This document shows positions 15,760 to 54,568 of a stretch of DNA of 64,000 bases, piece by piece. Within the stretch, counting starts at the first letter, position 1. Each line of letters starts with the position of its first letter. This DNA comes from Eledone cirrhosa (lineage: Eukaryota): the NCBI GenBank assembly GCA_964016885.1, contig OZ024750.1, forward strand, positions 30,566,001-30,630,000, in the 5' to 3' direction. The notes below the pieces were generated by a model that worked only from the letters and a program-made list of their open reading frames with translations, was not told the DNA's origin and did not search any database. The position numbers and the translations under genes are program-made.

Positions 15760-16680
15760 AAAGAACACAAGAGCGTCTACAACATCAAAAGATTTTTATT
15801 GGCTTACAATGTTTCTTCCTTACGTAACCATAGGATTCGTCAGAGCTATAAAAGGGGTTTGATTGGTGTTATGGACTCTACCAACCAAACATTCAAGAAC
15901 AAAGAGAGTAAAGAGCAAAAGTAGGGGACGATAAGTCTAATTTTGGTGTGGGAGGGTGGAGTGTGGGTCCTTGTTTACTAGCTACGGTCATATTCATTCC
16001 TGGGTGTCGAGTGGTTAGCTGAACCATAGATGGGGTGGCATCGATAGTAGGGTGCAGAGGGTGTGCAGAGGCTACACACACACATATATATATATATATT
16101 TAAAGTGAGTGGAATAATCCACTTGTATTTTGGTAATGTAAAAAAGAGAAATGAAAGCAGGGAGAAAGTTGATAACAAATTGTGTATATTCTTGCTAAAA
16201 TTATTTGCATATGGTTGCTAAGACATAACTGTTGTATCAGAAGAGCTATAGAAAAGGGAAATAACTTAACAAAAGTTGTAGTGTAAAGGTGTAGCTAAGT
16301 ATGTTTATGCACAGAGTGTGCCTTTGAGGGATGGGAGTTTAGAGAAACTTGGGTGGGGAGTTCAACCGGGATGATTTGGAGGTGAAGATTTACTCAAACT
16401 TTAGTCTGTATTGGTTAACCCCTGGGGGTGACTGACTCCTAACATACTTAAGTTGGTGGTGGAATGTGTGGGAGACTAAAAGTGCCAGGAGATGGGGAAA
16501 TTATAGGGGTACTCTGTGAAGCAATGAGCCAACTGGTGCCCAGTCTGGTCAATGTAAAGGGCAAAGCTCAACAAGCATGTTAGGCAGTAGATAAGGTTAG
16601 AGTGTGAAAGGTGTGGCTGTTGGGTCCAGTGGCTGTTGTAGAGTGGATAGGTATGGCAATAGGGCTGGGTTCATGAGCAA
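15760..16680 (-). mobile_element. Penelope-like element remnant: GIY-YIG endonuclease and 3' region with hammerhead
   Basis: HSNLIYCLTCLLSFALYIDQTGHQLAHCFTEY (16510-16605) and terminal LGVSHPQGL resemble PLE NLIYCITC..YIGETG..F.EH and LGTL.P.GLN. Confidence 0.75.
15794..15853 (-). ncRNA. Minimal type-I hammerhead ribozyme motif
   Basis: gct-CTGACGA-a-tcct..agga-a-GAAAC-att-GTA-agc; stem I gct/agc extended by tttat/ataaa. Confidence 0.7.
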
Positions 16681-17088
16681 GTGTATTTTAATATATATTA
16701 ACACACTGACATTTAAATAATCTGTTAGAAAAAGTAATATTAAGAACAAATTACAGAGATTTCTGTCAGGAATATAAATAGAATGACATCGATCGACATG
16801 ATCTCAGACCTCATTTGCTTACTGAGTGGAGTGGAACCCATTAAATCACACTACGAAAACAATGTTTCCATTGGTCTTGCCATTACTGACACAGTCTACT
16901 GGTTGCAACTCCTGGCAGAAAGAGTAACATGCAATAAAGTGTCTTGCTCATGGAAATAACACATCACCTGGTTTGGGAATTGAACTCGCAATCTCACAAT
17001 TGTGAATCCAATTCTCTAACCATTAAGCAACACACCTTTACAATGGGAAGGTGGAATAAAAATAATGTGAACAAAATATAAACCTCAC

Positions 17089-17185
17089 CAGTTTTTACAG
17101 TCATTGAAAATGACGACAGCATCTGAAGGATATATAATCTTTTCATACAAACATGAACAATCTTTTTGTTTAACGCATTTCTCTC
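17089..17185 (-). CDS. Exon: end of TIL plus E module
   Basis: ttttgtag / gtgagg; 97 nt, phase 1 to 2; EKCVKQKDCSCLYEKIIYPSDAVVIFNDCKN. Confidence 0.9.
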
Positions 17186-17568
17186 CTACAAAATATGAAA
17201 AGAATACACAATTATACCAAATCATAGTTTTTTTTAGCTGTTTAATTATTGGGTAACATTTATAAAGGTCAGCTGAAAGTTCATGGGCTGACTATGAAGG
17301 AGTGATGCTAGAGCTGTGAAATTTTGCATGCATTAATTTCAACTCTTTTTATTAATAACTGCATTGTTTCTTTCCAGGAACTATGTTGAAAAATAAACCT
17401 CATTTGGTCATTCCATGAGAGTATCTTAGTCAGCTTATGAACTTTTCAGCTGATCCTGATATAATAATCATATAATTTAATCAGTGTCTGGAATAATGAG
17501 TATATACTCACTTTATTCATAGAAATAACATGTATGTAAAACTTAGACATAGAACACTTCAAAATATA

Positions 17569-18087
17569 TCATCATCATCATCATCATCAACGTTTAACGT
17601 CCGTGTTCCACGCTTGCATGGGTTTGGACGGGGGTAGTCCCACTTGAGGCAAGAGTGATTGTCTTGCTCGCATAGGACTGTCTGGCAGGTTTTCTACAGT
17701 TGGATGCCCTTCCTAACACCAACCACATTTACAGTGTGGGTCTGGGAGGTTTTTACCGTGTTGCCTACACGGCCACATTACAGCGTGGACTGTGTGTTTT
17801 TTTGTCGTGACACCTACACGATCTCATTTGTTTCGGCCTCGATGGCGAGGCACCAACATAACTTTACATAGAACGGGGTGGTGTGGATCGGGTGGGGGTG
17901 GGGGTGGTGGGACGGGGTGTATTTTGTTAGAGATGCCTACTGGCTGGAGTAGGTTTTACTATATATTTAGGTAAGGCGGGTCTTCTCTGTTACTGAGTAC
18001 CGCCAAAGGTCTCGGTCCAGTGACATTGTCTTGGAGAGGTGTAAGTGTGTGATGTCGGAGTTTATCAGCTCGTCCCAGGTTTTTCTA
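17569..18087 (-). mobile_element. 3' end of the same RTE subfamily as 19768-21297, with complete UTR and (GAT)n tail
   Basis: 17738-18087 is the near-exact reverse complement of 20948-21297. Confidence 0.9.
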
Positions 18088-18257
18088 TATATATATATAT
18101 ATATATATATATATATATATATATATATAATGAAAAAGTTCTATTTAAATTGTTGGGATACAACAAGCAAATATTTTTATAACTGATATAAAGCACTCAA
18201 CAAGTATTTGGAGTAAACATACGATATTAACAAATGGAAACTATATTTAAAAAACCA

Positions 18258-18566
18258 TCCGCTTTTCCCTGCTTGCAAGGGTGGGACGGGAACTAATTAT
18301 GGCTTGATTTCTACAGCTGGATGCCCTTCCTAACACCAACCTCATTTACAGTGAGTGCTGGGTAATTTTTTTGCTGTGGCACCTCCACGACCACTTTGCA
18401 GTGGAATGATAGGGACCCCAGTCCCTATCATCTCATTTCTACAGCTGAGTAAACTGGAGCAATGTGAAATAAAGTGTCTTGCTCAAGGAAACAACACATC
18501 ACCCGGTCTGAGAATTGAACTCACAACCTTTGCAAGGCCAATGCTCTAACCACTAAGCCATGTGCC
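18258..18566 (-). mobile_element. SINE family A copy
   Basis: Reverse complement of the family A sequence. Confidence 0.85.
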
Positions 18567-52680: not shown

Positions 52681-52921
52681 GAATGAAAGGATTCTCGTCC
52701 TGTAGACGTAATTTCTATATACAATGAATACCTTATATGCTCTGTTAGTAGACTAGTGGAATATTTTCTGTAGTCAATATACAGCGAAAGCTAATTCAGT
52801 TTTCAAAATACAGCGAAAGCTTCTAATTCAGTTTTCAAAATACAGTGAAAGCTTCTAATTCAGAATAATTGTTAGATGAAGTCCATTGGTGTATGGAAAT
52901 AAATAGAATGCTAATACTTAC

Positions 52922-53013
52922 AAGTTTTTACAGCCAATTGACAATTTACTACTTGGAGACATCCATGTTTCCCCATATTTGCAAGGACATTCACTTGGCG
53001 AAACGCAAGTTCC
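52922..53013 (-). CDS. Exon: end of TIL' / E' module
   Basis: aattag / gtaagt; 92 nt, phase 0 to 2; GTCVSPSECPCKYGETWMSPSSKLSIGCKN. Confidence 0.88.
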
Positions 53014-53716
53014 CTAATTTCAGAAGTTTAGAAAAACAGAATGATCAGATTAATATAATTTGGTTGTGATAGGTTAGTTAGTAGAAATACATGTGTACAA
53101 TGCTTACGATAGAGGTATGGAATATTGTGTACTCTCGTGTCTCAAATAATCAATACCACTCCTCTTATTTTTCCACTCCCTCTGCTAATTAAATTTTGCT
53201 GTTCTATCTCTGGTGAAATTTTAATTTAAGTGGAAGCATTCCTGTGACAATTTTCTTTATACTTAAAAAAACATTATACATGATAAAAGTACATTACTAG
53301 AAATCCCACATGTTATAAATAGGATGAACTTTTCAGCTGGCCCTCGAGTATATATATCATTTTTCATAATCATTTCATTTTATGTCCACTTTTCCCTGCT
53401 TGCAAGGGTGGGACGGGAACTGATTCTGGCTTGATTTCTACAGCTGGATGCCCTTCCTAACACCAACCTCATTTACAGTGAGTGCTGGGTGCTTTTTTGC
53501 CGTGGTAATATTCCCTGCATGTATCATATAGCTTCAAGACAGCTTCTTTTTATAATACTTTTCAATGTTTTGTTGTCTTTTCATTGTGATATTCTTTTGC
53601 TCTTATTCTTCAATATATTGTAACTGACACTAATAATTATAATTAGTCTTCTCAAATATAATGTATCTTAATGAATGTTCTAAGGATTAGGAATTTATTT
53701 ATTTTAACATTGTATA

Positions 53717-53763
53717 TGCTCCGATGATTCCAGACATATGTCTGGAAGAAACGATTGTTAGCA
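53717..53763 (+). ncRNA. Hammerhead-like motif with U4C core variant
   Basis: tgct-CCGATGA-ttccagaca-ta-tgtctggaa-GAAAC-gatt-GTT-agca. Confidence 0.6.
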
Positions 53764-54177
53764 ATTAAATGCATTAAACAAAAATTCGATTGTTTTCTTT
53801 GTTGTATTTCTGCTCTGTACTATATCTGATATTTTACATTGAGCTAATTTTCTTATTGGTAACTGGCAATACAAAATATTACCCTTATCTTATTTATAAT
53901 TGTATATAGATTATATCTATAAGTATAAATATTATTATTACTATTATTATATATTACTATTATTATATATATATTTATATGTGTGTGTGTATCCCGGGTT
54001 CAATCGGGGGTAACCACAGTAAGGTACTCAACACATAGTAGAGTATATAATGTTTAATATAAAAATGGCTTCTAGAGGACTAGAACTGTTTCCTTCGAAA
54101 GAAATCATCATTCCTACAAATGAAAGTTCTAGTCCTGTAGAAGCCATGTCTATATTAAACATTATATATATATATAT

Positions 54178-54568
54178 ATATTGTTATACTTTGGGAGGGT
54201 CATGTTGCCAATAAGAAACACATGCACCAGTTGCTTTCACTTCAATTTATTATAATAAATTTATAAATTTATAAATTTCTGGTTGGTTGGTTGGTTCCAC
54301 AACCAGATAGTTGTTTATATATTGTCATAGTTCTTTCGTCACACACTCTGTGACCTCTTCAGTGACTGGGGATTCTTTTCTTTGTTTTTTGTGCCTCTCC
54401 TTTGTTCTGTCCTATGCCATTTTTCAACTATCTGGTTGTGGAACCAACCAACCAACCAGAAATTTATAAATTTATAAATTTATAAATTTATTATAATAAA
54501 TTGAAGTGAAAGCAACTGGTGCGTGTGTTTCTTATTGGCAACATGACCCTCCCAAAGTATAACAATAT
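54178..54568. repeat. Long inverted repeat (arms 54178-54313 and 54425-54568)
   Basis: Arms are near-perfect reverse complements; the loop holds the hammerhead motif. Confidence 0.92.
54324..54366 (-). ncRNA. Minimal type-I hammerhead ribozyme motif
   Basis: gtca-CTGAAGA-g-gtcaca-gagtg-tgtgac-GAAAG-aa-CTA-tgac; all three stems pair. Confidence 0.72.

What the first reader, a model, noticed from the sequence alone, without database searches (positions are those of the whole stretch)
15760..54568. A single gene's introns carry at least five different Penelope-type hammerhead motifs, some on the pre-mRNA strand
Seen: CUGANGA..GAAA cores with pairing stems at 15794 (-), 19044 (+), 54324 (-), 53717 (+, U4C) and 38406/38672 (both strands, degenerate), each with unrelated flanks and inserted beside (TA)n. 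Weaker remnants occur at 54081-54133 (-), 32549-32560 (-) and 15167-15190 (+). Known: PLE pseudo-LTRs and metazoan retrozymes carry minimal type-I hammerheads with very short stem III that tend to cleave as dimers. Inference: several non-autonomous ribozyme-bearing families target TA microsatellites here; sense-strand copies could cut intron RNA co-transcriptionally.
Basis: partly seen in the sequence, partly recalled or inferred. Interest (0 to 1): 0.7.

Follow-up and report, generated by a model that had tools for sequence, protein, structure and literature searches.

The report
Penelope transposon hammerhead scraps in introns
Four well-formed hammerhead-ribozyme motifs lie in the introns of a large cysteine-rich protein gene, but they are likely the clipped tips of common Penelope-type jumping genes and are predicted to stay uncut in the gene's RNA, so this is an ordinary case of a known kind.

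Summary
Four complete minimal type-I hammerhead motifs are real (C3 at 15843-, 19075+, 53721+, 54362-; 4 seen vs 0.03 per shuffle). The host is a minus-strand VWD-C8-TIL-LDLa gene, so two motifs are sense and two antisense. The 38406/38672 pair is one decayed inverted insertion. The three 'remnants' fail even a relaxed scan, and 15843 and 53721 are homologous rather than unrelated. Each motif sits 87-243 nt upstream of a TA run, often with an inverted arm and tail, the published anatomy of 5'-truncated Penelope-like elements (PLEs). 19075 has the U·U stem-II base of Hydra-clade PLEs, which target (TA)n and are already reported from octopus. The 54362 family is abundant, and its variants spare all 33 core and stem positions. 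No PLE reading frame was found, so membership is inferred. Cutting of the pre-mRNA is unlikely: monomer stem III does not form, and the two sense motifs cannot pair with each other. No RNA data were available. The scan has noted the same phenomenon many times elsewhere in this genome. New members of a known kind; low interest.

The parts
15794..15853 (-). Minimal type-I hammerhead A, sense to pre-mRNA. C3 15843; stem I 3 bp plus 6-bp extension; A·A at base of 4-bp stem II; stem III 3 bp with 1-nt loop; predicted cut after A15805 (GUA), about 1.95 kb before the next exon
15757..16083 (-). Likely insertion carrying motif A, between two TA runs; 3' end abuts (TA)20 87 nt after C3
19069..19111 (+). 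Minimal type-I hammerhead B, antisense. C3 19075; stem I 6 bp; U·U at base of 4-bp stem II (Hydra-clade pattern); perfectly palindromic 6-nt stem III; GUA site
18936..19231 (+). Insertion carrying motif B, between TA-type runs, with a 71-nt 5' inversion (18939-19009, 93% self-complementary)
53717..53763 (+). Minimal type-I hammerhead C, antisense. C3 53721 with U4C; 8-9 bp stem II; 8-nt self-complementary stem III; GUU site; homologous to motif A
54324..54366 (-). Minimal type-I hammerhead D, sense. C3 54362; extra G at 9.1; G10.1-C11.1; 6-bp stem II; 4-bp stem I; 2-bp stem III with 2-nt loop; predicted cut after A54328 (CUA), about 1.3 kb before the next exon; member of an abundant family
54181..54624 (.). 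Whole insertion around motif D: minus copy 54424-54181, 5'-truncated and ending at a TA run, plus an inverted plus-strand arm 54425-54624 (132 of 133 aligned bases identical, one 8-nt gap) that runs about 56-59 nt further (tail) to a second TA run; predicted to fold as a long hairpin with the motif in its loop
38258..38772 (.). One inverted insertion inside the TA satellite holding two copies of a decayed hammerhead (C3 38447 minus, 38672 plus); arms 98.4% identical over 188 nt; one arm about 90 nt longer; no adjacent stem I
18130..18262 (-). Further 5'-truncated copy of the 38447 family (86% over 128 nt), lacking the hammerhead and ending at the same 3' point against (TA)22
54043..54170 (.).
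13709..63158 (-). Host gene (partial), SCO-spondin-like by domain order (name recalled): exons with C8 57987-58223, TIL 57280-57567, TIL 54889-55084, small exon 52922-53013, VWD 46085-46354, C8 28869-28976, TIL 25630-25776, exon 17089-17185, LDLa 13709-13851; not all exons mapped

Best explanation
The four motifs are genuine minimal hammerheads that are likely the 3' tips of several Penelope-like retroelement families, left in these introns as short 5'-truncated insertions at TA repeats, and they are predicted to be inert passengers in the host pre-mRNA. Inferred mechanism: the PLE endonuclease nicks (TA)n and reverse transcription starts near the element's 3' end, where the hammerhead lies 90-240 nt inside. 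Early stops and inversions then leave 130-500 nt scraps that often keep the ribozyme, sometimes with an inverted arm and a tail. In the active parent the ribozyme would work as a same-family dimer and/or with the PLE protein, which would explain why the family's core and stems stay constant. A lone copy in an intron lacks that partner. Shown here: motifs, strand, inverted arms, TA-abutting ends, abundance and conservation pattern of family D. Inferred: PLE origin, insertion mechanism, lack of cutting.
For: Motifs exceed chance (4 vs 0.03). Motif D matches the published PLE min-HHR traits: extra base at 9.1, G10.1-C11.1, long helix II, short helix I. Motif B's U·U base of stem II occurs in 14 of 26 Hydra-clade rows of Craig 2021 File S2 (counted by eye), and 3-4 bp stems III with 0-3 nt loops like those of A, B and C are the rule there. 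Nearly all Hydra families insert in (TA)n, and Hydra-1_Obim of Octopus bimaculoides has its hammerhead about 100 nt from its 3' end. 5' truncation, an inverted 5' copy and a one-sided tail are the described PLE anatomy, and inverted arms are seen at B, D and 38447/38672, with tails at the last two. Two copies of the 38447 family end at the same point against TA. Family D: 3,327 contigs in run X1, 3,290 in X5 (another organism) and 23 in X6; relatives continue past the window copy's 5' end. Variants at >=5% hit 0 of 33 core/stem positions, 6 of 10 free positions (N7, both loops, H17 A/U) and 14 of 77 flank positions (Fisher p 3e-5 and 0.009). Monomer stem III pairing is <=0.07 and the two sense motifs are incompatible. 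In the full hairpin context stem I of D falls to 0.06.
Against: No RT or GIY-YIG frame lies next to any motif. The 40-codon open frame in D's tail arm found no relative. Five short motif strings and one 5-residue peptide string from the window found no relevant match in the Craig supplement, which is held cut. So PLE membership rests on anatomy and motif shape. Family data exist for only 1 of 4 motifs. No compensatory pair change was seen in family D, only invariance. Contig counts are not copy numbers, RAD reads are biased, and X1 may be the assembly's own source. Folding predictions ignore co-transcriptional order: stems I and II of D form well (0.94-0.99) with short flanks, before the downstream arm would be made. 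The gene extends beyond the window, so a same-family partner elsewhere in the pre-mRNA is not excluded.
Confidence: 0.82

Rival explanations
1. The carriers are monomeric or partial copies of non-autonomous retrozyme-type elements (circular-RNA intermediates) pasted by a PLE enzyme, rather than tips of autonomous PLEs.
For: No coding sequence beside any motif. Family D is abundant and shared with other organisms. A 2026 preprint links animal retrozymes to PLE pLTRs. An unchecked scan note describes a retrozyme in this genome with ends 59 nt apart, similar to D's tail length.
Against: Retrozymes are tandem repeats of 150-450 bp units. Tandem Repeats Finder shows no such array at any motif, and self-BLAST shows no direct repeat of any element. 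Lack of an ORF is also expected from 5' truncation.
Confidence: 0.3
2. Sense copies (D, perhaps A) do cut the pre-mRNA at a meaningful rate, by pairing in trans with RNA of the same abundant family or with help from PLE protein or chaperones, and so tune output of the host gene.
For: D has an intact core identical to its family's majority at all 33 constrained positions, and stems I and II fold with short flanks. A fast engineered hammerhead in an intron can lower mRNA up to 20-fold in zebrafish. PLE protein activates a PLE hammerhead in vitro.
Against: D's stem III self-duplex is unfavourable (+1.4 kcal/mol) and the motif is boxed in a 133-bp hairpin. A has an A·A mismatch where its homologue C has U-A. 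Dimers of min-HHRs cut only weakly in vitro, and no RNA-seq ends were found at the Anolis PLE site. No strand bias here (2:2).
Confidence: 0.07
3. The motifs are chance matches in AT-rich, palindrome-rich repeats.
For: True for the weak remnants: none passes the relaxed scan. Folding z-scores of A and of the 38447/38672 pair are near 0, and only 1 of 4 motifs has any Rfam hit.
Against: 4 observed vs a maximum of 1 in 300 shuffles; family D variation follows the ribozyme's constraint map; published PLE rows show the same shapes.
Confidence: 0.02

Closest known systems
Minimal hammerheads (min-HHR) of metazoan PLE pseudo-LTRs, Cervera and de la Pena 2014 (PMC4209133; main text parts 1-2 of 4 and supplement parts 1-2 of 3 read)
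   Same: Type I; short helix I; palindromic short helix III; extra base at 9.1 and G10.1-C11.1 (motif D); mostly single dispersed copies; pairs 100-700 bp apart on opposite strands (as at 38447/38672); thousands per genome.
   Different: No linked ORF shown here. A has A·A, B has U·U and C has U-A at the base of stem II instead of the consensus G-C; C carries U4C; D has G at 9.1 where the consensus has H.
Hydra clade of C-terminal EN+ PLEs, including Hydra-1_Obim of Octopus bimaculoides, Craig et al. 2021 (PMC8557442; passages, section 11, supplement part 2 of 59 and term searches)
   Same: (TA)n insertion; hammerhead close to the 3' end; U·U base of stem II (motif B); 3-4 bp stem III with tiny loop (A, B, C); extra G after A9 (D, as in Hydra-1_oBim).
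   Different: None of the four motifs has the stems of Hydra-1_oBim, so they are other families. D's 2-bp stem III is shorter than any Hydra row seen. The clade's defining protein motifs could not be examined.
Metazoan non-LTR retrozymes (Cervera and de la Pena 2020, PMC7229834, passages; Li et al. 2026, bioRxiv 10.64898/2026.07.22.740005, part 1 of 5 and passages)
   Same: Non-coding, low-GC repeats with type-I hammerheads, often dimer-dependent; a U·U stem-II base occurs in axolotl HHR_Amex2; 42-44% of Xenopus copies overlap introns.
   Different: No tandem units at these loci; no circular RNA evidence.
Exapted intronic ribozymes: amniote HH9/HH10 hammerheads and the CPEB3 HDV-like ribozyme (review PMC6765202, passages; CPEB3 papers seen as search listings only; other details recalled)
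   Same: Intronic location on the pre-mRNA strand (A, D).
   Different: Those are isolated, conserved, monomer-competent motifs. Here stem III is unstable, D is one of very many repeat copies, and the best Rfam HH9 score is 19.7 against a cut-off of 52, for an antisense copy.

Membership tests
PLE min-HHR | Type-I core CUGANGA...GAAA...NUH with stems I and II | tested here: met
   4 motifs; C carries U4C, a natural variant that lowers activity in vitro
PLE min-HHR | Very short, self-complementary helix III, unstable as monomer | tested here: met
   monomer pairing <=0.07; self-duplex fully paired for B and C, one U·U for A, two A·A for D
PLE min-HHR | Extra base between 9 and 10.1 with G10.1-C11.1 | tested here: inconclusive
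   met in 1 of 4 (D); B fits the Hydra U·U form; A and C differ
PLE min-HHR | Large dispersed family with conserved core | tested here: met
   family D only; A, B and C not examined
PLE min-HHR | Covariation in stems across family members | tested here: inconclusive
   family D stems invariant at >=5%; no compensatory pair; one variant extends stem I to 5 bp
PLE min-HHR | Self-cleavage as dimer or with protein | not testable with these tools
   no biochemical or RNA data
Penelope-like elements (EN+) | ORF with telomerase-like RT and GIY-YIG endonuclease next to the pLTR | tested here: inconclusive
   none in the window beside the motifs; tail frame without hits; 5' truncation predicts absence; no whole genome
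Penelope-like elements (EN+) | 5' truncation, inverted 5' copy, one-sided tail | tested here: met
   B (inversion), D (truncation, inversion, 56-59 nt tail), 38447/38672 (inversion, about 90 nt extension). These tails are longer than the 30-40 bp quoted
Hydra clade PLEs | Insertion into (TA)n with hammerhead near the 3' end | tested here: met
   weakest for C (243 nt to (TA)>=4, 442 nt to (TA)>=6)
Hydra clade PLEs | Protein motifs RWK, DKT, CxCX5C, no CCHH | not testable with these tools
   no ORF recovered
Non-LTR retrozymes | Tandem 150-450 bp units each with a hammerhead | tested here: not met
   at these loci only
Non-LTR retrozymes | Monomeric linear and circular RNAs | not testable with these tools
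   no RNA run available
Exapted intronic hammerheads (HH9/HH10 type) | Monomer-competent fold matching the Rfam family | tested here: not met
Non-circularly permuted hammerheads (type SGC/CSG/GCS, PMC10085705, passages) | Core blocks in permuted order with all three stems | tested here: not met
   0 SGC, CSG or GCS parses in the window within a 170-nt span

The most novel reading that the evidence does not exclude
Family D is so abundant that its transcripts could complete lone intronic copies in trans (or PLE protein could activate them), turning sense-strand PLE tips across the genome into conditional pre-mRNA cutters that respond to transposon activity, with the flanking inverted arm acting as a timing switch. 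The loop-III variants of family D stay purine (AA, GA, AG), which would fit a tandem purine-purine mismatch in the dimer helix.
Probability: 0.05. Interest if true: 0.75.

Novelty: new member of a known kind. Interest (0 to 1): 0.2.

Why it matters
As it stands, it adds a few families to a class already published for many animals, including a (TA)n-targeting, hammerhead-bearing PLE of octopus, and shows how densely such scraps can pepper one gene (five insertions in about 39 kb of introns). The one useful datum is that family D varies only where a hammerhead tolerates change, which points to selection on cleavage in the parent elements although the role of PLE hammerheads is still unsettled in the papers read. 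It would matter much more if sense copies cut host pre-mRNA in trans, since transposon expression would then feed directly into host gene output; nothing here shows that.

Tried and rejected
No whole genome is held, so no genome-wide copy count or consensus was possible. The whole-window Rfam scan was swamped by TA-repeat matches to miRNA models, and only the best 150 of 398 rows were shown. No RNA holder listed. Reads could be laid on only one motif family; A, B and C have no family data. Exact pattern scans for family D found 0 loci in metagenome contigs and genome contigs. A pattern for the A/C lineage gave 6 metagenome loci, none with stem III, NUH and stem I, judged chance. The 40-codon open frame in D's tail arm (54510-54629) gave no hit in three searches; a loose likeness to the start of Hydra-1_Obim was not pursued. 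An 'LTTRHPGMN' stretch upstream of A resembles PLE C-termini as recalled from memory only and is not counted. Permuted hammerheads, suggested by other scan notes, were not found; one type-II (SCG) parse using D's inverted arm is at background rate (0.1 per shuffle) and would be sequestered in the hairpin. Scan look-ups by sequence for four elements, and by 'near', returned nothing. Lunse et al. 2017 on PLE hammerhead dimers is not held; it is known only through the review's passage. A search for 'hammerhead ribozyme' with 'octopus' listed 4 papers, of which only Craig 2021 is relevant; the O. vulgaris repeat paper has 0 occurrences of 'ribozyme'. The bioRxiv supplements of Li et al. 2026 are closed, and the Craig supplement is held cut; either could bear on family assignment. 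The organism was not identified by my own calls; 'octopus-type' comes from scan notes.
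Full report
Observation. All CUGANGA boxes were listed on both strands. A type-I descriptor recovers exactly A-D in 64 kb, against a mean of 0.03 and a maximum of 1 in 300 dinucleotide shuffles, whether shuffled in 500-nt blocks or whole. Allowing one core mismatch adds nothing beyond these four, so 38447/38672 and the remnants at 54081-54133, 32549-32560 and 15167-15190 are not scorable. Rfam gives only a sub-threshold HH9 hit on B (19.7 bits, cut-off 52) and none at A, C or D.

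Host gene and strand. Cysteine-rich exons lie on the minus strand. Pfam calls C8, TIL, TIL, VWD, C8, TIL and LDLa in that order (7 of 9 exon pieces hit), an SCO-spondin-like order (name recalled). The exons flanking the motif introns have AG/GT ends and consistent phases. A lies in intron 17088-13852, B in 25629-17186, and C and D in 54888-53014. A and D are sense, B and C antisense; the decayed pair is one of each. There is no strand bias.

How many different things. Pairwise scoring of the variable parts shows that A and C are homologous (z 5.7; the other 9 pairs <=2.4). They share stem I, the base of stem II, stem III and the 3' flank. Each has one lesion relative to the other: A has A·A where C has U-A at the base of stem II, and C has U4C, a natural variant that lowers activity in vitro (PMC3088659, passages). 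38447 and 38672 are two arms of one inverted insertion (98.4% over 188 nt). The tally is five insertions from four lineages, four with complete motifs.

Anatomy of the insertions. A (TA)>=4 run begins 87-243 nt downstream of C3 in all six cases, whereas 16% of random non-satellite positions are that close (cut-off chosen afterwards; with (TA)>=6, C is 442 nt away). B has a 71-nt 5' inversion. D is a 244-nt copy joined at its 5' end to an inverted arm, 132 of 133 aligned bases identical, which runs about 56-59 nt further to a second TA run. The 38447 arm is about 90 nt longer than the 38672 arm, and a third, shorter copy at 18130-18262 ends at the same point against (TA)22. 5' truncation, an adjacent inverted copy and a one-sided tail are the described signature of PLE insertions (PMC8557442, passages); the tail reflects two reverse-transcription start sites (PMC11167929, passages). 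The tails here are longer than the 30-40 bp quoted.

Family evidence for D. Laying four public DNA runs on 54296-54430 gave 3,327 contigs in X1, 3,290 in X5 (a second organism), 23 in X6 (a third), and 124,637 of 12.47 million RAD reads in X8. These are not copy numbers; RAD is biased and X1 may be the assembly's source. Loose ends show that the family continues beyond the window copy's 5' junction, confirming truncation. Substitutions at >=5% in any run fall on 0 of 33 core and stem positions, 6 of 10 free positions (N7, two in loop II, both in loop III, H17 A/U) and 14 of 77 flank positions (Fisher p 3e-5 and 0.009). One flank variant extends stem I to 5 bp. This is the constraint map of a hammerhead and suggests selection in the parent elements. 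It is invariance, not covariation, and the variants are inherited subfamily traits rather than independent events. A, B and C have no such data.

Comparison with print. Cervera and de la Pena 2014 (main text parts 1-2 of 4, supplement parts 1-2 of 3) describe thousands of min-HHRs per metazoan genome, mostly single and probably truncated PLEs, with an extra base at 9.1, G10.1-C11.1, long helix II, short helix I, palindromic helix III, and pairs 100-700 bp apart on opposite strands. D fits these traits. Craig et al. 2021 (section 11 and supplement part 2) list Hydra-clade PLEs, nearly all inserting in (TA)n, including Hydra-1_Obim from Octopus bimaculoides with a hammerhead at 2403 of 2507 nt. 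By my count 14 of their 26 Hydra rows have U·U at the base of stem II, as B does, and their 3-4 bp stems III with 0-3 nt loops resemble A, B and C. None of my motifs is Hydra-1_oBim itself. The Hydra lead came from a scan note and was checked against the paper. No RT or endonuclease frame lies beside any motif, and a 40-codon frame in D's tail found no relative. Membership of the PLE class is therefore inferred from shape and anatomy, not shown by a linked protein. The retrozyme criterion of tandem units is not met at these loci. No permuted hammerhead, a theme of other scan notes, was found.

Would they cut the pre-mRNA? Predicted stem III pairing as a monomer is 0.00-0.07 at all flank lengths tried. 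A dimer needs a same-family partner: A and D, the only complete sense motifs, are 38.5 kb apart in different introns and offer 0 bp of stem I and 1 bp of stem III to each other. D's stem III self-duplex is unfavourable (+1.4 kcal/mol), and once the whole insertion is transcribed, D sits in the loop of a 133-bp hairpin with stem I at 0.06. Published min-HHR monomers gave no cleavage and dimers little. The Anolis PLE hammerhead needed the PLE protein, and no RNA-seq ends mapped to its site. Against this, D is intact and folds stems I and II with short flanks, the gene extends beyond the window, a very abundant family could supply partners in trans, and a fast intronic hammerhead can knock down a gene (PMC11856399, passages). 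No RNA data could be brought to bear.

Verdict. The Penelope-type reading is supported; the regulatory reading is not. Best explanation (0.82): passenger 3' tips of PLE-type insertions at TA repeats, with autonomous vs non-autonomous parents unresolved (retrozyme-type parent 0.3, overlapping with the passenger reading). Functional cutting 0.07; chance 0.02. The scan has reported the same kind of intronic hammerhead relic repeatedly elsewhere in this genome (unchecked notes, not independent evidence). New members of a known kind; interest 0.2.

Noticed in passing
window 21394-24516 (+): Uninterrupted 1040-aa RTE-type LINE ORF (endonuclease, RT, PHD-like finger), antisense in the host intron, directly preceded by a 5'-truncated copy (19671-21068); looks young.
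   Followed up: partly
window 32620-45821: 13.2-kb TA-rich satellite inside one intron with embedded islands: an RTE 3' end (about 34750-34940), the 38258-38772 inverted insertion, and a ~55-nt island present twice (about 36175 and 38990) that has a faint hammerhead-like 3' half.
   Followed up: partly
window 1-9500: Tandem duplication of a ~4.44-kb unit (two copies and part of a third) holding retroelement fragments.
   Followed up: no
window 54043-54170: TA-flanked near-perfect hairpin (folding z -5.3) with a decayed hammerhead-like centre; a 39-nt piece recurs at 52682-52720.
   Followed up: partly
window 54181-54624 (-): A 133-bp near-perfect hairpin in the pre-mRNA, 260 nt from a 5' splice site; a likely long dsRNA substrate for A-to-I editing (inference).
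   Followed up: no
window 54510-54629 (+): 40-codon open frame with an internal ATG running through D's tail; no homologue found.
   Followed up: yes
window 15341-15398 (+) and similar copies: tRNA-derived SINE head (Rfam tRNA 25.5 bits); several copies of the same SINE lie next to the TA-flanked insertions.
   Followed up: no
window 56007-56574: 66-bp minisatellite, 8.6 copies, 95% matches, open in several frames.
   Followed up: no
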